Shown here one piece after another: positions 401 through 60,505 of a stretch of DNA of 64,000 bases; position 1 is the first letter of the stretch; every line of letters starts with the position of its first letter. This stretch comes from Octopus vulgaris. Taxonomy: Eukaryota. The DNA is taken from contig OX597833.1 in assembly GCA_951406725.2 (NCBI GenBank), forward strand, positions 64,108,001-64,172,000, given 5' to 3'. The notes below the pieces were generated by a model. That model was not told the DNA's origin and did no database searches. It saw nothing but the letters and a program-made list of their open reading frames with translations. The position numbers and the translations under genes were made by a program.

Positions 401-401
<1 letters not shown>

Positions 402-472
402 TGTTTCTTTATTAGCCACACAGGGCTGCACACAGATAGAACAAATTACAAGGTAGAGCTTTTCTTTTGAAT

Positions 473-512
<40 letters not shown>

Positions 513-1842
513 GGGGGAGTTTCGATCAAAAGGGATCGTAAAAGGAGAGAAGGAGGACAAAAAAAAGGGGGTTAAAAAAAGGGGGAGAGGAAAAAAAAAA
601 AAAAAAAAAATTGATCAATAGGGATCGTTATCACAGAAATGTCAATATGAAGTGTAAAGGGGAGGACAGGTGAGGTTTACCCGTGGAAAGAAAAGCCTAC
701 GGAAAAGACCACGGTAACCTCGGTCAATGAAGTCACATTTTATATTTCTTTTTTTTTTTTTTTTTTTTTTTGCAAATAAGCAACTCTCTGTTTTCGATTT
801 CTGGGTTCATAGGACTATGCTCAAGGTGGCTTCGTCATTCATACGTGCCATTCTTGCTACATTCACCCATCTTTTTTTAAAACATTCGCTAGACAAAACT
901 TGCCTCTCTACTCTCACTTTCCTTTTCAAGTGGTACTTGAAGAAGTTGATGAGAGATTGACCAGAGAGGAAAGTGTTTGTCTCCAATCCTTTCAGACGCG
1001 TCCACCAGATACATTCTTTCGCCATAGCCACAAGGATGATGAAAATAGCTCTTCCTTCCCGTTTGAAGGAAGGAGGCGTGACAATATTGACGATAGACTC
1101 AGCTGATAAACCGACTCGTCCCACACGTGACAGCAGTTGTTCGACATAAGCCCACAGGTCGGAAATTGTTGGACACTGAACGAGTGCGTGCAGAACGGTT
1201 TCGTCGCTCTGACCGCATCTCGGGCAGGTCGGCCCCGTGTTTCTCGAGCCGTGTCTGTAGAGCTTATCCCGAACGGGTAGCGCTTCTCGGTAGCACTGCC
1301 AGGCCAGGGATCTCTGGAAGTTGTCCATGGGCCCTGGCCCGAAAGTCGTCCTGAACAGGCGGGTCAGGTACTCCTCGTCGACGTCCAGGTTCGCCCCGAG
1401 CTCGTCGTCGTACCTCCCCTCCACTAAACCCCTATAGAATGCTTTGGTTGTGTTGAAGTCACTTAAGGTCGACCCAGGACGGCAGAGTTGCTTGAGAGCA
1501 ACGCGACACTCGCGGTGCCATTCGCCCTTCCTCGGCCTCTTTTTGATCCACGACTGCAGTTCGGTCATGGAGACGAGCTGCGGGAAAGCGTGCCTCACAA
1601 ACGGTGACCACACCTGTTCACCGTCGTCTACATAGAGCCAGAGATGCCGCAGTCTCAGCGCGTGTCTGCGCATCATCAACCACGGCATGCCCAGCCCTCC
1701 TTTTAACGGGTGTTGACAGCAAATGGATCGCCTGACCATCGGGACGCATCCTTTCCACAAGAAGCGAAAGAGGATGCGTTGTAGTTTGGTGATGGTAGGG
1801 TCGGGACAAGGTACGACGGTCAGGCGGTAGTAGATGACGGAC
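401..1842 (-). mobile_element. Tx1/L1-clade non-LTR retrotransposon, 5'-truncated copy 1 (ORF2 C-terminus plus 3' UTR)
   Basis: Open frame 807-~1842 with post-RT LINE motifs (LFRFLWKG, KGGLG.P, LPVRDKLYRHG) and a zf-RVT knuckle CPRC..DETVLHALVQC; ~400 bp 3' UTR ending AATAAAGAAACA then (TATC)n; near-identical to 56603-57681. Confidence 0.9.
807..1842 (-). pseudogene. Uninterrupted C-terminal ~345 aa of LINE ORF2 (post-RT region and zinc knuckle); no true start, EN and RT core missing
   Basis: ORF track 807..1982; its first ~47 aa (YLSI repeats) are microsatellite read-through. Confidence 0.85.
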
Positions 1843-1903
1843 AGATAGATAGATAGATTAATAGATAGATACTTACATAGATAGATTGGTTGATAGATTG
1901 ATT

Positions 1904-1972
<69 letters not shown>

Positions 1973-2200
1973 ATAGATACATAGACAGACAGACCTATAG
2001 ACAGACAGATGGACAGATAGATAGTTAGATAGATAGAGAGATAGATTAATAGATATATACTTAGATAGATAGATAGATATAGATTGGTAGATAAATAGAT
2101 AGATAGACAGACCTATAGACAGACAGATGGACAGATAGATAAATAGATTAATAGATAGATACTTAGATAGATAGATTGATAAATAGATAGATTGATAGAT

Positions 2201-2248
<48 letters not shown>

Positions 2249-2375
2249 AGGGAAAGATAGATAGACAGACAGATAGACAGACCTACATATAGACAGACAG
2301 ACAGATAGATAGATACTTAGATAGATACTTAGATAAATAGACTGATAGATAGGTACTTAGAGAGATAGAGAGATA
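1843..2375. repeat. (GATA)n/(GACA)n compound microsatellite
   Basis: Directly visible. Confidence 0.95.
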
Positions 2376-2651
2376 GAAACATAAGCATGGATATGCCTAG
2401 AAAACGTTTGCTTATTTATCTCTGTCTGTATGCGTACGTTTTTATGGGAGGTAGAGCGTAGTTACATACGTATATACGCAATATTTAAGAGAGAGAATTT
2501 AGTGAAATTATGAATGTTTTGGAATTTCCCTTTAAGTTGTTTTCGCCATTCGTCTTTCATCTTTCCAGTGAAACAATTAACATGGCGTCTATTGTAATAA
2601 ATGTTGACAAACTAGTCTAAAACAGTCTCTTCACTGTTTATGTGATTGTGC

Positions 2652-9540: not shown

Positions 9541-9569
9541 CTGTTTACTGTCTCGATATTTAGATGATT

Positions 9570-9988
9570 AAGGCGGCAAGCTGGCAGAACCGTTAGCACG
9601 CCGGGCGAAATGCGTAGCCGTATTTCGTCTGTCGTTACGTTCCGAGTTCAAATTCCGCCGAGGTCGACTTTGTCTTTCATCCTTTCGGGGTCGACAAATT
9701 AAGTACCAGTTACGCACTGAGGTCGATGTAATCGACTTAATCTCTTTGTCTGTCCTTGTTTGTCCCCTCTGTGTTTAGCCCCTTGTGGGTAGTAAAGAAA
9801 TAGGTATTTCATCTGTCTTTACGTTCAGAGTTCAAATTCCGCCGAGGTCGACTTTGCCTTTCATCCTTTCGGTGTCGATAAATAAAGTACCAGTTACGCA
9901 CTGGGGTCGATGTAATCGACTTAATCCCTTTGTCTGTCTTTGTTTGTCCCCTCTGTGTTTAGACCCTTGTGGGTAGTAAAGAAATAGG
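9570..9988 (+). mobile_element. SINE-A tandem dimer (full unit plus headless ~184-bp unit) within one 13-bp TSD
   Basis: A box-like AGCTGGCAGAA, B box GAGTTCAAATTCC; junction AAGAAATA|GGTATTTC at 9802/9803; TATTTAGATGATT at 9557-9569 and 9989-10001. Confidence 0.9.
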
Positions 9989-10021
9989 TATTTAGATGAT
10001 TGATAATTAAGATCGATTTAT

Positions 10022-10555
10022 AATGGCCATTGCTAGAAAGGGTATGGCCTGGTCAGTCTGTAATGACATGCATAAGATCTGGTCATCAAATCTAAGTGGA
10101 GACTTCAAACTTGAAATCTTCAAAGCCACAGTCGAACCAATTCTACTATATGGTTCAGAAACCTGGACGTTATCAAAGAAGCTTGAGAGGCGGTTGGATG
10201 GAACCTACACTCGCCTCCTTATGAGAGCTCAAAATCTCTTGTGGAAGCGCCATCTAACCAAAATGCAAATATATGGGAAACTACCACCTGTGTCATCTCT
10301 TGTGAAAGGTAAGAGAGTCCAGTTTGCTGGACATTGTTGTAGAGCTGAAAAAGAGGTAATTTCTCCTCTTCTCCTCTGGAAGCCATCTACTCGCAATACC
10401 AGAGGGCGCACACTCTCCTACTCTGATGTAATCTCCAGGGATACAGGCATCCAGCAACAGGACCTCCGTAATGCCATGATGGACCGTGAAGTCTGGCGTA
10501 ACATAGTAAATTCCATTGTCTCGACCACGGTCGAACAATGATGATGATGATGATG
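10022..10555 (+). mobile_element. RTE-clade LINE 3' fragment with open ORF2 C-terminus and (TGA)n tail
   Basis: ORF 10023..10541: KLEIFKATVEPILLYGSETWTL, QFAGHCCR, AMMDREVWR; stop followed by (TGA)n. Confidence 0.88.
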
Positions 10556-11200: not shown

Positions 11201-11570
11201 CGACCCCGAAAGGATGAAAGGCAAAGTCGACCTCGGCGGAATTTGAACTCAGAACGTAACGGCAGACGAAATACGGCTACGCATTTCGCCCAGCGTGCTA
11301 ACGTTTCTGCCAGCTCGCCGCCTTAAATATAGTATATATTTCTTTACTACCCACAAGGGGCTAAACACAAAGGGGACATACAAGGACAGACAAACGGATT
11401 AAGTCGATTACATCGACCCCAGTGCGTAACTGGTATCTATTTAATCGACCCCGAAAAGATGAAAGGCAAAGTCGACCTCGGCGGAATTTGAACTCAGAAC
11501 GTAACGGCAGACAAAATACAGCTACGCATTTCGCCCGGCGTGCTAACGTTTCTGCTAAGTTCGCCGCCTT
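11201..11570 (-). mobile_element. Two SINE-A copies in tandem (11338-11570 full, 11201-11325 3'-truncated)
   Basis: Reverse complement of the SINE-A consensus; short AT-rich spacer between copies. Confidence 0.88.
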
Positions 11571-11981
11571 TTCTTATACCTTCATATATCTACCCAGTAA
11601 ACTTCATATGGCTACCCATGTAAAATCCCACTTTATTATAACAATGGCTTTGTTTACCAGCACACTCAACACCACGGGTTTCATGGTGTGACAGAAGCAT
11701 TAGAATGACGAGAAAGCCAAAATCCTAACACTACGGTATTGAAGCAGGCTCTTTAAATATTGAATTCAAGTCCAGTCGAGGGTAACTTTTTATATCTTGT
11801 CCTTTAGGGTCGTTAAGACATAAAATAGAGTAGCAGTCTCAGTGCTGAAGACGATATAATCGAATAAAACAAATGGTGGCCATCTGACTAAATGAGAAAC
11901 AGTTGTTTTCGAGCACGGGCGTACAGAAGAGAATATCGATTTCAACGAAATTTGAACGCAGAACACGTGACTAAATATCTG

Positions 11982-12211
11982 TTTCTTTACTACCCACAAG
12001 GGGCTACACACAGAGGGAACAAACAAGGACAGACAAACGGATTAAGTCGATTACATCGGCCCCAGTGCGTAACTGGTACTTAATTTATCGACCCCGAAAG
12101 GATGAAAGGCAAAGTTGACCTCGGCGGAATTTTGAACTCAGAACATAATGGCCGAAGAAATATGGCTACGCATTTCGCCCGGCGTGCTAACGTTTCTGCC
12201 AGCTCGCCGCT
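11982..12211 (-). mobile_element. Full-length SINE-A
   Basis: Reverse complement of the SINE-A consensus. Confidence 0.9.
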
Positions 12212-12529
12212 TAAATTATCGTTTCTTAACTTACTGTCGTAAATAACGGGAAGTTATACGTAACGAAACAATATTGTCCCTTAAATATGCAAGCTTATAG
12301 TTAAAGGTGGAGAAACATAAAATAATAAGTGTGCTCAATCAAGCTTGATGTGAGTGTTAAACGACTTTAACAACAACGACAGCAATACAAAAGAAACATG
12401 TTTAAATTTACATGAAAAACAAGAACACTTACATACATGAAGACAGAATATTAATGATATACTTATTAAATATTTAAAGTTCTGTGTTAAGAGACCAAAA
12501 TAAGGAAAATACATACATACATATATATA

Positions 12530-18459: not shown

Positions 18460-18915
18460 ATGTCTGTGTTTGTCCCCACAACATCGCTTGACAACTGATA
18501 CTGGTGTGTTAAAGGCCCTGTAACCTAGCGGTTCTGCTAAAGAAAAAGGCGGCGAGCTAGCAGAATCGTTAGCACGTCGGGCGAAATGCCTAGCAGTATT
18601 TCGGCTGCCGTTACGTTGTGAGTTCAAATTCCGCCGAGGTCGACTTTGCCTTTCATCCTTTCGGGGTCGATAAATTAAGTACCAGTTAAGCACTGGGGTC
18701 GATATAATCGACTTAATACCTATGTCTGTCCATGTTTGTCTCCTCTATGTTTAGCCCCTTGTTGGTAATAAAGAAATAGGTTCTGCTAAAATAACCGACA
18801 TAATAACTGCTAGGCTTACAAAGAATAATTCCGGGTGTCGATTTGCTCGACGTAAGGCGGTGATCCAGCGTGGCTGCAGTCAAATGACTGAGACTAATAA
18901 AAGAATAAAAGAATA
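18460..18915 (+). mobile_element. SINE-B 3' half interrupted by SINE-A
   Basis: CATCGCTTGACAACTGATACTGG.. resumes after 18790 and ends with the (TAAAAGAA) tail. Confidence 0.8.
18546..18778 (+). mobile_element. Full-length SINE-A with 12-bp TSD
   Basis: GGTTCTGCTAAA at 18530-18541 and 18779-18790. Confidence 0.92.
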
Positions 18916-21573: not shown

Positions 21574-22122
21574 TATTTCTTTATTGTCTACAGGGGGCTA
21601 CCTCATAGAGGGGACAAACAAAGACAGACAAAGGGATTAAGTCGATTACTTTGACCCCAGTGCATAACTGGTACTTATTTAATCGACACCGAAAGAATGA
21701 AAGGCGAAGTCGACTTCGGCACAATTAGAACGCAGAACTTAAAGACATACGAAATACCTATTCCTTTACTACCCACAAGGGGCTACACATAGAGGGGACA
21801 AACAAGGACAGACAAAGGGATTAAGTCGATTACATCGACCCCAGTGCGTAACTGGTACTTAATTTATCGACCCCGAATGGATGAAAGGCAAAGTCGACTT
21901 CGGCAGAATTAGAACTCAGAACTTAAAGACAGACGAAATACCTATTTCTTTACTACCCACAAGAGACAAACAGGACAGACAAAGGGATTAAGTCGATTAC
22001 ATCGACCCCAGTGCGTAACTGGTACTTAATTTATCGACCCCGAAAGGATGAAAAGCAAAGTCGACCTCGGCGGAATTTGAACTCCGAACGTAAAGACAGA
22101 CAAAATACCGTTAAGCATTTCG
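21574..22122 (-). mobile_element. SINE-A tandem trimer
   Basis: Junctions GAAATACC|TATT at 21758/9 and 21942/3; ~184-bp period. Confidence 0.9.
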
Positions 22123-22975: not shown

Positions 22976-23741
22976 AAGGCGGCGAGCTGGCAGAAACGTT
23001 AGCACGCTGGGCGAAATAGAAAGCGGTATTTCGTCTGCCGTTACGTTCTGAGTTCAAATTCCACCGAGGTCGACTTTGCCTTTCAACCTTTCGGGGTCGA
23101 TAAATTAAGTACCAGTTACGCACTGAGGTCGATGTAATCGACTTAATCCCTTTGTCTGTCCTTGTTCGTCCCCTCTGGGTTTAGCCCCTTGTGGGTAGTA
23201 AAGAAATAGGTATTTCGTCTGCCGCTACGTTCTAAGTTCAAATTCCGCCGAGGTCGACTTTGCCTTTCATCCTTTCGGGGTCGATTAAATAAGTACCACT
23301 TACGCACTGGGGTCGATGTAATCAACTTAATCCGTTTGTCTGTCCTTGTTTGTCCCTTCTCTGTTTAGCCCCTTGTGGGTAGTAAAGAAATAGGTATTTC
23401 GTCTGTCGTTACGTTCTGAGTTCAAATTCCGCCGAGGTCGACTTTGCCTTTCATCCTTTCGGGGTTGATAAATTAAGTACCAGTTACGCACTGGGGTCGA
23501 TGTAATCAACTTAATCCGTTTGTCTGTCCTTGTTTGTCCCTTCTCTGTTTAGCCCCTTGTGGATAGTAAAGAAATAGGTATTTCGTCTGTCGCTATGTTC
23601 TGAGTTCAAATTCCGCCGAGGCCGACTTTGCCTTTCATCCTTTCGGGGACGATAAATTAAGTACCAGTAACATACTGGGGTCGATGTAATTGACTGTCCC
23701 CCTCACCCCAAATTTCGAGCCTTGTGCCTAGAGTAGAAAAG
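22976..23741 (+). mobile_element. SINE-A tandem tetramer (one head, four bodies; last unit has the alternative tail)
   Basis: Junctions AAGAAATA|GGTATTTCG at 23208/9, 23392/3 and 23576/7; exact 184-bp period. Confidence 0.93.
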
Positions 23742-28535: not shown

Positions 28536-28849
28536 TTTTGGGGTCTTCTTTGGGGGGGATTTTATCCCCACTGATTGATTTTTCTTCTTTCTTTTTTTCC
28601 TTCCTTTTCTTTCTTTTTTTTTTTTTTTGTCTTTCTTCACATTGGCAAAATGCCCGAAATTTGCAAATCTTGGGATAGCAAACGGTGCTGCTGGGTTGAG
28701 GGCAACAGATCATATCGAGACCAGCATTTGAACGGTATTTTATTTAATTGACCCTTGAAGGATCAAGGTAAGGCTTTATTTCAAGCGAATTTGAATTGAG
28801 ATTATCGTAATTGGATTAAATACACGCTGAACACCGAAAACATATACTA

Positions 28850-37879: not shown

Positions 37880-38719
37880 TTTGATACTTTGATACTTTGA
37901 TAGGTTTCGGCCATTATTGGCCCAGGCCATGTCTAACTTAATAGCACCACCTGGTGAAGTCTTTCAAGTCAGAATTTGGGCACTATGGCCCACTCAAGTA
38001 GAGAGTTATTGTTTACAGAGACATATCCGGGTGTAGGGGGTTTATCCGGGATTTCTTGAAGGAATCTGTCCAAAGACTTCTTGAACCCTATAGGGTCAGT
38101 TTCTGTTTTAATGTGTTTTGGTGTAATGTTAAAGAGAGCGGGGCCAATTGAGGTGAAATAATTGTGCCGTATTGTTGTTATGAGATGAGAGTGCGATTTT
38201 TGTTTTGGGCGGATGGCACGGGGCCCAAGCCTTGGATGTACCTTAAAGGTGATGCCAACATCATTTGGGCAATGCTGATGGAATATTTTCCACATCATGC
38301 AGATGATGTAGCGCTCACGACGACGTTGGAGAGAATAGAGTTTTAGCTTTTCTAGTCGACCCCAATAGTCGAGGCCTGTCATGCCATCTATCTTTTTTGT
38401 GATTGCCCTTTGAGGTGCTTCGACTTTTATGATACCTTGTATTGTGTGGGGAGACCACAGTGGACAACAGTATTCAAGGTGGGGTCGGGCAAAAGTGGAG
38501 AAGAGAAGGATAATGGTGTGGATATCTCTCGACTGGAAAGTTCTGAGAATCCAGGAACACATTCTGCGGGCCATGTCAACTTTGGTGTTTATATGAGTGG
38601 CCCAGCTTACGTTGTTGTCCACAATTACTCCCAAGTCTCTGATGTTGTTGGACGCCGCGAGAGTTTCACCTGAAGGAAGGGAGTATGGGAGTTTCAGGGC
38701 ATCCTCTTTTCCAAAGTGG
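37878..38719 (-). mobile_element. CR1-clade LINE, 5'-truncated, open ORF2 C-terminus, (TATCAAAG)3 tail
   Basis: ORF 37969..38634: DLGVIVD, RPHLEYCCPLWSP, LYSLQRRRERY, GPALFN; (TA)n on both sides. Confidence 0.9.
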
Positions 38720-38929
38720 ATATATATATATATATGCGTGGATGTGTGTTTGTGCTCGTGCGTATTTATTCGAACCTATACATGCCATCTCTTAAACAGA
38801 CATATCTACCTATAAAATCATACCTATGTATTTTGAATTAAATATACATAGACCTTGTACGTACATACACCTAAATAAACTCCTCCATGCATTAAAATAC
38901 ACACACACACACGTATATGTATATATGTG

Positions 38930-39026
<97 letters not shown>

Positions 39027-39493
39027 CATATACATACAGTAACGTATAAAGTCGTCGTCTTTCGTTCGGAGATCTGACATACTTCAGTTTACATGAGATA
39101 TGGTTTACATTAATCTGTCCAGACGTTTTAAGTGCTGCAAATAATATATACACGTATATACAAGCGTACAAATATACACGCATTTTTATGTGCATATTCA
39201 TTTATGCATAGATGTGTGCACGCGTATGTATGTGTTCATGTATGTATGCATGTATATGCATATCTGTGTATATATGTGCATATATACATACATTCATATG
39301 TGTATAAGTATATGAAAACATATATACATATATATACATACATATATATGTATATATATATATATACATATATGAATATATGCATATATATATATACATA
39401 TATATATGCATATATATATATATATACGTACATACACACATACGCATCCACAGACATAGTCAGTCTATGTATCTATCTATCTGTCTCTCTATC

Positions 39494-39548
<55 letters not shown>

Positions 39549-39564
39549 CCTACCAATCTATCTT

Positions 39565-39605
<41 letters not shown>

Positions 39606-51743: not shown

Positions 51744-51873
51744 TTTTTTCCTTTCCTTTTTATGATTTCTTTTGATCGAAAACCTACCACACTTTTTTTC
51801 TCCCCTAAAAGAAAAGCTTTACTTTGTAATTTGTGCCGGCTGTGTTCAGCCCTGTGTGGCTGATAAAGAAACA
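51744..51873 (+). mobile_element. Tx1-like LINE copy 3 (terminal ~130 bp of 3' UTR, diverged)
   Basis: TTTTGATCGAAA..AAAAGAAAAGCT..TTGTAATTTGT..CAGCCCTGTGTGGCTGATAAAGAAACA then (TATC)n. Confidence 0.85.
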
Positions 51874-51955
<82 letters not shown>

Positions 51956-51960
51956 ATACA

Positions 51961-52198
51961 CGTGATGATCCCTATTGATCGTTTTTTCCTCTTCTTTCTT
52001 CCTTTTTTCTTTTTCTTTTCCTTTTTTTCCTTTTTTTTCTCCCCCCCCTTTACGATCCCTTTTGATCGAAAACCTACGCCACTTTTATTGTTTCTTTTGT
52101 TTTTTGTATTTTTTTGTTTTTTTCATCCCACAAAAGAAAAGCTCTACCTTGTAATTTGTCCCATCTGTGTGCAGCCCTGTGTGGCCAATAAAAAAACT
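51961..52198 (+). mobile_element. Tx1-like LINE copy 4 (terminal ~240 bp of 3' UTR, diverged)
   Basis: GATCCCTATTGATC..CGATCCCTTTTGATCG..AGCTCTACCTTGTAATTTGT..GTGTGGCCAATAAA; (TATC)n on both sides. Confidence 0.88.
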
Positions 52199-56456: not shown

Positions 56457-56538
<82 letters not shown>

Positions 56539-56602
56539 TTATCTGTCTGTCTGACTGTCTGTCTGTCTGTCTGTCTATCTATCCATCTATCTATCTATCT
56601 AT

Positions 56603-57681
56603 GCGAGTGTCGCGTTGCTCTCAAGCAACTCTGCCGTCCTGGGTCGACCTTAAGTGACTTCAACACAACCAAAGCATTCTATAGGGGTTTAGTGGAGGGG
56701 AGGTACGACGACGAGCTCGGGGCGAACCTGGACGTCAACGAGGAGTACCTGACCCGCCTGTTCAGGACGACTTTCGGGCCAGGGCCGATGGACAACTTCC
56801 AGAGATCCCTGGCCTGGCAGTGCTACCGAGAAGCGCTACCCGTTCGGGATAAGCTCTACAGACACGGCTCGAGAAACACGGGGCCGACCTGCCCGAGATG
56901 CGGTCAGAGCGACGAAACCGTTCTGCACGCACTCGTTCAGTGTCCAACAATTTCCGACCTGTGGGCTTATGTCGAACAACTGCTGTCACGTGTGGGACGA
57001 GTCGGTTTATCAGCTGAGTCTATCGTCAATATTGTCACGCCTCCTTCCTTCAAACGGGAAGGAAGAGCTATTTTCATCATCCTTGTGGCTATGGCGAAAG
57101 AATGTATCTGGTGGACGCGTCTGAAAGGATTGGAGACAAACACTTTCCTCTCTGGTCAATCTCTCATCAACTTCTTCAAGTACCACTTGAAAAGGAAAGT
57201 GAGAGTAGAGAGGCAAGTTTTGTCTAGCGAATGTTTTAAAAAAAGATGGGTGAATGTAGCAAGAATGGCGCGTATGAATGACGAAGCCACCTTGAGCATA
57301 GTCCTATGAACCCAGAAATCGAAAACAGAGAGTTGCTTATTTGCAAAGAAAAAAAAAAGAAATATAAAATGTGACATCATTGACCGAGGTTACCGTGGTC
57401 TTTTCCGTAGGCTTTTCTTTCCACGGGTAAACCTCACCTGTCCTCCCCTTTACACTTCATATTGACATTTCTGTGATAACGATCCCTATTGATCAATTTT
57501 TTTCCTCTCCCCCTTTTTTTAACCCCCTTTTTTTTGTCCTCTTTCTCTCCTTTTACGATCCCTTTTGATCGAAACTCCCCCTTCCTTTTTTTTTTTTTTT
57601 TTTTTAAACGTTCAAAAGAAAAGCTCTACCTTGTAATTTGTTCTATCTGTGTGCAGCCCTGTGTGGCTAATAAAGAAACAT
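56603..57681 (+). mobile_element. Tx1/L1-clade LINE, 5'-truncated copy 2
   Basis: ORF 56692..57309 matches copy 1 except D->N; same 3' UTR; (TATC)n on both sides. Confidence 0.92.
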
Positions 57682-57755
57682 ATCTATCTATCTACCTATC
57701 TGTCTGTCTGTCTGTCTGACTGTCTGTCTATCTATCTGCCTGTCTGTCTGTTTGC

Positions 57756-57789
<34 letters not shown>

Positions 57790-57826
57790 ATCTATCTGTC
57801 TTCTGTCTGTCTATCTGTCTGTCTAA

Positions 57827-57901
<75 letters not shown>

Positions 57902-57983
57902 CCTATCTGTCTGTCTGTATGTCTGTCTGTCTGACTGTCTGTCTATCTATCTGCCTCTCTGTCTGTTTGCCTGTCTGTCTGTT

Positions 57984-58016
<33 letters not shown>

Positions 58017-58063
58017 ATCTATCTGTCTTCTGTCTGTCTATCTGTCTGTCTAACTATCTATCA

Positions 58064-58120
<57 letters not shown>

Positions 58121-58877: not shown

Positions 58878-59370
58878 AAGGCGGCGAGCTGGCAGAAACG
58901 TTAGCACGCCGGGCGAAATGCTTACCGGTATTTCGTCTGTCGTCACGTTGTGAGTTCAAATTCCGCCGAGGTCAACTTTGCCTTTCATCCTTTCTGGATC
59001 GATAAATAAAGTACCAGTTGCGTACTGGGGTCGATCTAATCGACTTATTCCCTTTGTTTGTCCTTGTTTGTCCCCTCTGTGTGTAGCCCCTTGTGGGTAG
59101 TAAAAAATATATAGGATGGCTGTTATGTAAGGCGGCGAGCTGGCAGAAACGTTAGCACGCCGGGCGAAACGCTTAGCGGTATTTCGTCTGCCGCTACGTT
59201 CTGAGTTCAAATTTCGCCGAGGTCGACTTTGCCTATCATCCTTTCGGGGTCGATAAATAAAGTATCAGTTTCACACTAGGGTCGATGTAATCGACTTAAT
59301 CTCTTTGTCTGTCCTTGTTTCCTTGTTTGTCCCCTCTATGTTTAGCCCCCTTGTGGGCAATAAAGAAATA
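58878..59370 (+). mobile_element. Two full-length SINE-A copies plus ~20-nt spacer within one 16-bp TSD
   Basis: TATATGATCCCTCAGT at 58860-58875 and 59371-59386. Confidence 0.92.
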
Positions 59371-59657: not shown

Positions 59658-59893
59658 AAGGTAGCGAGCTGGCAGAAACGTTAGCACGCCGGGCGAAATG
59701 CTTAGCGGTATTTCAGTCTGCTGTTTACGTTCTGAGTTCAAATTCCGCCGAGGTCAACTTTGCCTTTCATCCTTTCGAGGTCGATAAATTGAGTACCAGA
59801 TACGCATTGGGGTCGATGTAATCGACTTAATCCCTTTGTCTGTCCTTGTTTGTCCTCTCTATCTTTAGCCCCTTGTGGGCAATAAAGAAATAA
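59658..59893 (+). mobile_element. Full-length SINE-A with 12-bp TSD
   Basis: GAGGGTGTACTG at 59645-59656 and 59894-59905. Confidence 0.92.
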
Positions 59894-60260: not shown

Positions 60261-60278
60261 CACGGTATAGAATGGGTG

Positions 60279-60505
60279 CGAGCTGGCAGAATCGTTAGCA
60301 CGCTGGGCGAAATGCGAAGCCGTATTTCGTCTGTCGTTACGTTCCGAGTTCAAATTCCGCCGAGGTTGACTTTGCCTTTCATCCTTTCGGGGTCGATAAA
60401 TTAAGTACCAGATACGCACTGGGGTCGATGTAATCGACTTAATACCTATGTCTGTCCTTGTTTGTCCCCTCTGTGTTTAAGCCCCTTGTGGGTAATAAAG
60501 AAATA
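60279..60505 (+). mobile_element. SINE-A with 15-bp TSD
   Basis: GGTATAGAATGGGTG at 60264-60278 and 60506-60520. Confidence 0.92.

What the first reader, a model, noticed from the sequence alone, without database searches (positions are those of the whole stretch)
401..1842. Young Tx1-like LINE apparently specific for (GATA)n/(TATC)n microsatellites (4 of 4 copies)
Seen: copies at 401-1842(-), 51744-51873(+), 51961-52198(+) and 56603-57681(+) all end ..TAAA(G)AAAC followed by (TATC)n on the element's sense strand. Copies 1, 2 and 4 also have (TATC)n at their differently truncated 5' ends, so the repeat looks like a target rather than a self-made tail. Copies 1 and 2 differ by only about 3 substitutions I could see in the shared ORF, implying recent activity; copies 3 and 4 are diverged, implying a persistent preference. 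Known: Tx1-clade families are often sequence-specific (Kibi (TC)n, Koshi (TTC)n, Keno U2, Mutsu 5S, Dewa tRNA spacers). Inference: this is a GATA-targeting member; I cannot check whether it is already catalogued. The endonuclease domain is absent from this window.
Basis: partly seen in the sequence, partly recalled or inferred. Interest (0 to 1): 0.8.

Follow-up and report, generated by a model that had tools for sequence, protein, structure and literature searches.

The report
Octopus LINE lands in GATA microsatellites
All four copies of a young, abundant jumping gene in this octopus-type DNA end at the same position of a GATA/TATC repeat, and one visibly splits an older repeat array, so the family likely aims at this microsatellite, a landing site I did not find reported for this group of elements.

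Summary
Observation confirmed. Four 5'-truncated copies of an L1-group (probably Tx1) LINE lie at 402-1842(-), 51744-51873, about 51955-52198 and 56603-57680; all end AAAC(A/T)|TATC in one register. Copy 1 interrupts an older higher-order GATA array: the same variant unit stands three times on one side and once on the other, and the 78 impure 20-mers shared by its flanks occur nowhere else in the window. The copy at 56603 shows a weaker version. That favours a target over a self-made tail. The two short copies are a tandem pair, so there are three independent loci and two clean 5' flanks. The host is an octopod; the family is abundant and young; a relative 83% identical has an intact endonuclease, reverse transcriptase and zinc finger. 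Extra finding: the window's abundant SINE shares the LINE's last ~50 bases but never sits in (TATC)n. Not done: genome-wide flank count (no genome held; read-laying skipped the 3' end), a labelled Tx1 tree, Repbase/Dfam. Microsatellite targeting by Tx1 elements is known (TC, TTC, TTCC, TTTC); a GATA target turned up in none of ten literature searches. Verdict: new variant of a known kind.

The parts
402..1842 (-). LINE copy 1, 5'-truncated: C-terminal part of ORF2 plus 3' UTR
807..1841 (-). Open C-terminal 344 codons of ORF2, with zf-RVT zinc finger at residues 178-230; 83% identical to full-length relative P0320
10..401 (-). 3' flank of copy 1: degenerate GATA array with a higher-order unit starting at 127, 231 and 323
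1843..2377 (-). 5' flank of copy 1: continuation of the same array; the higher-order unit resumes at 1857
56603..57680 (+). LINE copy 2, 5'-truncated 329 bases further in than copy 1; ORF2 remnant 56603-57309; 3 substitutions from copy 1 in 707 coding bases
56460..56602 (+). 5' flank of copy 2: (TATC)n/(TCTG)n array carrying the variant TCTGACTGTC at 56550
57681..58118 (+). 3' flank of copy 2: (TATC)n/(TCTG)n array carrying the same variant at 57715 and 57930
51744..51873 (+). Short 3'-UTR-only copy; 5' flank (TA)n plus two TATC units, 3' flank (TATC)20
51874..51953 (+). Pure (TATC)20 run between the two short copies
51955..52198 (+). Short 3'-UTR-only copy, in tandem behind the one at 51744; followed by (TATC)n to about 52290
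11980..12215 (-). Example of the abundant SINE whose last ~50 bases are homologous to the LINE 3' end (other copies or tandem blocks at 9568-9984, 11201-11567, 18549-18776, 21576-22122, 22979-23695, 58881-59368, 59664-59890, 60278-60503)

Best explanation
The four pieces are 5'-truncated copies of a young, abundant octopod LINE of the L1 group (likely Tx1 clade) that likely inserts by preference into existing (GATA)n/(TATC)n microsatellites, always in the same orientation. Shown: the copies, their common 3' register, the split array around copy 1, and an intact endonuclease-RT-zinc finger ORF2 in a close relative. Inferred mechanism: the APE-type endonuclease nicks the GATA-reading strand after GATA; the free 3' end primes reverse transcription at the RNA's 3' end (…AAAGAAACA); synthesis often stops early, and the cDNA is joined to the TATC strand a few repeat units away, so any target duplication is hidden in the repeat. 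Because the target survives at the junction, a second copy can land next to the first (51744 and 51955). Read-through UAUC at the RNA end may help priming. The target is plentiful and non-coding, which would make it a cheap landing site.
For: 4 of 4 3' ends in one register against a 0.96% background. Copy 1: the variant unit starts at 127, 231, 323 and again at 1857; 78 impure 20-mers shared between its two flanks, 0 of them elsewhere in the window, and at most 6 shared between either flank and any of 9 other arrays tested. Copy 2: 13 impure 20-mers shared between flanks, against at most 4 with another array; TCTGACTGTC occurs only at 56550, 57715, 57930 on either strand. Loose ends at 1841 in runs X1, X3, X14 continue as ORF2, so the 5' TATC is not element sequence (same peptide in P0320). 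13 of 17 TATC arrays inspected have no element end in front of them, so the arrays exist without the element. P0320 (83% identical) has Exo_endo_phos, RVT_1, zf-RVT and its model matches human L1 ORF2p best (E 9e-48). 30 of the 40 best-supported variant sites are third-codon positions (p 8e-8), so the ORF has been under selection. Precedent: Tx1L endonuclease nicks almost only at its target (PMC1950540); Kibi, Koshi and crocodilian Tx1 families use microsatellites (PMC4494074).
Against: Only three independent loci and two clean 5' flanks, all from one GATA-rich window. 5 of the 13 20-mers shared around copy 2 also occur elsewhere in the window. The 5' joints fall in different phases of the repeat (after TATCT in copy 1, after TAT in copy 2), so no fixed target-duplication length can be read. 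None of the 20 loose ends shown (of 1378) is a GATA run, although the tool skipped 401-620 and drops rows at repeats. The SINE with a homologous 3' end is followed by (TATC)n at 0 of 14 ends, which is awkward if this same endonuclease were strictly specific and also moved the SINE. The family's own endonuclease was not seen; P0320 is a relative of unknown host and flanks.
Confidence: 0.62

Rival explanations
1. The preference for GATA arrays is real but comes mainly from RNA-DNA pairing: the endonuclease is only loosely selective (perhaps for TAT), the LINE transcript runs on into the downstream repeat, and its UAUC end pairs with a nicked GATA strand, so only such sites prime efficiently.
For: The SINE with the homologous 3' end but no TATC tail lands elsewhere (0 of 14 ends), with 12-16 base target duplications in 5 of 9 blocks; TAT starts 0 or 2 bases after its end at 5 of 8 outer junctions (background 0.098, p about 4e-4, chosen after looking). 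RTE LINEs and their SINEs are reported to shift site choice with their 3' repeats (PMC6007223, passages).
Against: The base just before the repeat (A or T) is not part of the TATC repeat and is in one register in all four copies, which suits a defined RNA end as well as a read-through. The SINE could be moved by another subfamily: endonuclease-containing relatives are diverse (39-69% identity to P0320).
Confidence: 0.22
2. (TATC)n is only a self-made 3' tail (template slippage, as in UnaL2 or I elements); the 5' repeats are coincidence in a GATA-rich region or tails of neighbouring copies.
For: The 5' repeat of the copy at 51955 is the 3' run of the copy at 51744 and the 5' side of the latter is mostly (TA)n. 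Tails of tandem repeats are common in LINEs (PMC3747384, passages).
Against: A slippage tail cannot place the same multi-variant unit on both sides of copy 1; two independent 5' flanks in the right orientation have a chance of about 1e-4 to 3e-4 (0.0096 or 0.0166 squared); most arrays have no element end.
Confidence: 0.07
3. Insertion is not targeted; copies in microsatellites are simply kept, or this window is a local cluster.
For: Passive accumulation near CA repeats has been proposed for Waldo-A/B of Drosophila (PMC3812793, passage). One window only.
Against: Retention would not fix orientation or register, nor pick TATC (1.2% of oriented positions) over TA repeats (5.2%). The two long copies are 0.4% apart in the ORF, too young for much sorting.
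Confidence: 0.06

Closest known systems
Kibi (TC)n and Koshi (TTC)n of teleost fish; crocodilian Tx1-1_Crp group (TTCC)n/(TTTC)n (PMC4494074: passages and section 15 read; Fig. 3 image and supplements not seen)
   Same: APE-type LINE of the L1/Tx1 group found inside one microsatellite type in fixed orientation; 5'-truncated and tandem copies.
   Different: Target unit here is TATC/GATA, which contains A on the element's sense strand, unlike the all-pyrimidine units listed; host is a cephalopod. Relationship to Kibi/Koshi not tested (no reference sequences available).
Other microsatellite-targeting non-LTR elements: Waldo (ACAY), Mino (AC), Dong (TAA) (PMC3812793, passage), Togen (TG) (PMC4640811, passage)
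   Same: Use of an abundant simple repeat as landing site.
   Different: Other clades (R1, R4, NeSL-related by those papers and recall) and other repeat units; none listed with GATA.
Octopus 'L1-Tx1' families of automated annotations (PMC13282606: parts 1-2 of 3 read, supplement searched; PMC8967140: passages)
   Same: O. vulgaris has 80 L1-Tx1 families (56 Mb), 13 of them recently active with 421 near-full-length insertions; this family is probably among such consensus sequences.
   Different: The text read and the supplement search mention no target preference for them; the consensus library (Zenodo) could not be opened.
SINEU with Tx1-Mar in crocodilians (PMC4494074, passages)
   Same: A SINE proposed to be moved by a Tx1 LINE, with weaker target preference in some SINE families, and tandem SINE insertions.
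   Different: There the link is a shared target; here it is a shared 3' sequence while the targets differ.

Membership tests
APE-type non-LTR retrotransposon, L1 group | ORF2 with APE endonuclease, RT and C-terminal zinc finger | tested here: met
   Window holds zf-RVT; relative P0320, 83% identical, holds all three domains; invariant E37, Y112, D141, N143, D202, D226, H227 in alignment A3 (their reading as catalytic residues is recalled).
APE-type non-LTR retrotransposon, L1 group | ORF2 closer to L1 ORF2p than to R2-type proteins | tested here: met
   P0164: L1 ORF2p E 1e-50 against R2 E 4e-22; model of P0320: L1 ORF2p E 9e-48, R2 E 9e-19 (mean pLDDT 64.5).
APE-type non-LTR retrotransposon, L1 group | Common 3' end with variable 5' truncation | tested here: met
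   Four copies, four different 5' ends, one 3' end.
Tx1 clade | RT phylogeny groups with Xenopus Tx1L, Keno, Kibi, Koshi | tested here: inconclusive
   Quick tree of 87 RT rows (of 207 non-redundant, 277 fetched): the octopod proteins form a clade (SH-aLRT 99) among animal elements (turtle, fish, limpet, pseudoscorpion), apart from plant and fungal L1, but no labelled Tx1 or vertebrate L1 sequence was in the tree. L1-Tx1 is the only L1-group LINE in the table of recently active O. vulgaris families (PMC13282606).
Tx1 clade | ORF1 with gag-like zinc knuckles (recalled feature) | not testable with these tools
   All window copies are truncated; no locus with a 5' end could be fetched.
Microsatellite-specific family (criterion in PMC4494074: one target type in more than 20% of flanks) | Target repeat in flanks of the family's copies | tested here: inconclusive
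   Met in the window (4 of 4 at the 3' end, 2 clean 5' flanks) but not testable genome-wide (no genome; 3' end skipped).
Microsatellite-specific family | Endonuclease nicks the target repeat selectively | not testable with these tools
   Needs a nicking assay; the hairpin-loop region of the model (189-199) has pLDDT under 50.
Octopus CORE-SINE OR1/OR2 (for the SINE partner) | tRNA-derived head and CORE domain | tested here: inconclusive
   An A-box-like motif is present, my B-box pattern (recalled) did not match; ARAGORN and Rfam found nothing; no OR1/OR2 sequence was available.

The most novel reading that the evidence does not exclude
A cephalopod Tx1 lineage has taken (GATA)n as its target and is also the engine of the octopus's dominant tRNA-type SINE; the same enzyme sends its own RNA into GATA arrays but the SINE into loosely TAT-like sites, so target choice is set largely by the RNA tail rather than by the endonuclease alone.
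Probability: 0.2. Interest if true: 0.65.

Novelty: new variant of a known kind. Interest (0 to 1): 0.43.

Why it matters
It would add a tetranucleotide with a new base make-up, and a cephalopod host, to the short list of microsatellite targets of Tx1-type LINEs. Octopus genomes are rich in both GATA arrays and SINEs (SINEs are 11.6% of O. vulgaris, PMC13282606), so a young GATA-seeking LINE would be a steady source of length change at such loci, and the shared 3' end names a candidate partner for the SINE expansion. A LINE and SINE with one tail but different landing sites give a natural test of an open question: how much of microsatellite targeting is due to the endonuclease and how much to RNA-DNA pairing. 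It is not a new kind of element.

Tried and rejected
No whole genome is held, so flanks could not be counted genome-wide. The 3'-end pattern found 0 matches in metagenome and viral contigs; alignment A2 found no related locus in metagenome, viral or prokaryote-genome contigs. Laying contigs of four runs skipped 401-620 and gave no usable flank data; no RNA holder was listed. I looked by eye for TATC-derived leaders (YLSI repeats) in the 10 homologous fragments fetched and saw none; most start at an internal Met or contig edge, so this says nothing. The fifth BLAST hit at 11980-12023 is the SINE tail, not a fifth LINE copy. The weak hit at 28564-28650 is low-complexity T-rich sequence, not followed. 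Target-duplication length: phases allow 4n+1 for copy 1 and 4n+3 for copy 2, no single value. The small hairpin at the shared 3' end is no more stable than shuffles in any of 6 sequences (z -0.45 to 1.12), so no structure is claimed. Earlier scan findings: none by sequence or for these words; eight Tx1-target notes from other genomes concern other targets and were not used. Literature searches without a GATA-targeting LINE or an octopus Tx1 target.

Full report
Observation. The four copies are real and lie where stated: 402-1842(-), 56603-57680(+), about 51955-52198(+) and 51744-51873(+). Each ends AAAC(A/T) and is followed at once by TATCTATC on its sense strand. Only 0.96% of oriented positions in the window are followed by 12 bases of that repeat, so three further copies give 9e-7, or about 9e-5 for three independent loci. 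The two long copies differ at 3 of 707 coding bases. With the substitution rate quoted in PMC13282606 (0.0036 per site per million years) that is under a million years; this is a rough inference.

What the element is. Copy 1 carries 344 open codons ending in a zf-RVT zinc finger. Relatives with names come from Argonauta hians, Octopus sinensis and O. bimaculoides, so the host is an octopod. The closest full-length relative, P0320 (1148 aa, 83% identical over all 344 residues; host not named), has endonuclease, RT and zinc-finger domains, and its model matches human L1 ORF2p best. A quick RT tree of 87 of 207 non-redundant rows puts the octopod proteins in one clade among animal elements and apart from plant and fungal L1, but held no labelled Tx1. 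Tx1 membership is thus likely, not shown. The family is abundant: 38,636, 12,852 and 9,234 contigs were laid on the stretch in runs of three organisms, and 6 in a fourth (these are not copy numbers). Of the 40 best-supported variant sites (134 in all), 30 are third-codon and 30 silent, which points to several lineages that have been under selection for function.

Target or tail. The strongest evidence is the structure of the flanks. Around copy 1 the GATA array is built of a 92-104 base higher-order unit with several fixed variants; it starts at 127, 231 and 323, is cut by the element, and resumes at 1857. The two flanks share 78 impure 20-mers, none found elsewhere in the window; the most shared with any of 9 other arrays is 6. 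A tail made by slippage could not do this. Around copy 2 the flanks share 13 such 20-mers (5 also elsewhere), and one variant occurs only there, once upstream and twice downstream. Loose ends at 1841 in three runs continue as ORF2, so the upstream TATC is not the element's own. Thirteen of 17 arrays inspected have no element end before them. Against: the copy at 51955 shares its 5' run with the 3' run of the copy at 51744; the latter has mostly (TA)n upstream; the 5' joints fall in different phases; and none of the 20 loose ends displayed (of 1378) is a GATA run, though the tool skipped the 3' end and drops rows at repeats. No genome-wide count was possible.

Mechanism. By established knowledge of APE-type LINEs, the 3' junction marks the first nick. 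I infer a nick on the GATA-reading strand after GATA, priming at the RNA end, frequent early termination, and joining a few repeat units away. Tx1L endonuclease is reported to nick almost only at its target (PMC1950540, passages), which is the precedent for endonuclease-led choice. The main rival keeps the preference but assigns it to pairing between a read-through UAUC tail and the nicked strand, as proposed for RTE elements (PMC6007223, passages). Together the two give about 0.84 for a real preference.

The SINE. The window holds many copies of a ~235-base SINE. Its last ~50 bases align with the LINE's 3' end (score 54; 1000 shuffles: mean 19.9, maximum 29), the usual sign of a LINE-SINE partnership (PMC3747384, passages). 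Yet 0 of 14 SINE ends are followed by (TATC)n; 5 of 9 blocks show 12-16 base duplications; and tandem copies restart at one internal site of the SINE. TAT follows within two bases at 5 of 8 outer junctions (5 tandem-internal junctions and one degenerate end left out; background 0.098; a pattern chosen after looking). Either a sister subfamily moves the SINE or specificity relaxes in trans. Whether this SINE is OR1/OR2 could not be tested.

Comparison with the known. Listed microsatellite targets are TC (Kibi), TTC (Koshi), TTCC/TTTC (crocodilian Tx1), ACAY, AC, TAA and TG (PMC4494074; PMC3812793; PMC4640811). Ten searches gave no GATA-targeting LINE and no target description for octopus Tx1; the 2026 O. 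vulgaris annotation counts 80 L1-Tx1 families, 13 recently active, without naming targets in the text read or the supplement search. Limits: Kojima and Fujiwara 2004 was not read; Fig. 3 and the supplements of PMC4494074, which list more targets, were not visible; Repbase and Dfam were not searchable. Of PMC4824008, PMC4758252, PMC8967140 and PMC8869645 I saw passages only.

Verdict. A real feature, well supported locally, of a known kind with a target unit and host that I could not find in print: new variant of a known kind, interest 0.43.

Noticed in passing
window 9568-9984, 11201-11567, 11980-12215, 18549-18776, 21576-22122, 22979-23695, 58881-59368, 59664-59890, 60278-60503: Abundant SINE sharing its last ~50 bases with the LINE 3' end (0 of 1000 shuffles reach the score), but not inserted in (TATC)n; candidate LINE-SINE pair.
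   Followed up: partly
window 9568-9984, 21576-22122, 22979-23695: Head-to-tail SINE arrays of period 184 in three places, each further unit starting at the same internal position (about base 50, GGTATTTC): self-targeting or read-through transcripts.
   Followed up: partly
window 523-536 and 612-625 (-), 51967-51980, 52054-52067, 51764-51777: A motif GATC-(6 nt)-GATC occurs twice in the LINE 3' UTR and is kept in the diverged copies while the T-runs around it vary; possible RNA recognition element.
   Followed up: no
window 10011-10541 (+) and 37969-38775 (-): Fragments that look by eye like C-terminal parts of other LINE ORFs (RTE-like and CR1/Jockey-like, from recall); Pfam gave only a weak DUF6451 hit for the first and nothing for the second.
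   Followed up: no
proteins P0177 and P0321: A 63%-identical relative of this LINE protein is filed as 'Herbaspirillum sp.' (MAG; also a WP_ accession): probably animal DNA contaminating a bacterial bin.
   Followed up: no
proteins P0003 and P0182: Two O. bimaculoides gene models begin with a short piece of this LINE's ORF2 (83% and 97% identical): mis-annotation or exonised fragments.
   Followed up: no
window 39470-39604: A (TATC)n array directly followed by an inverted (GATA)n array, with no LINE end nearby.
   Followed up: no
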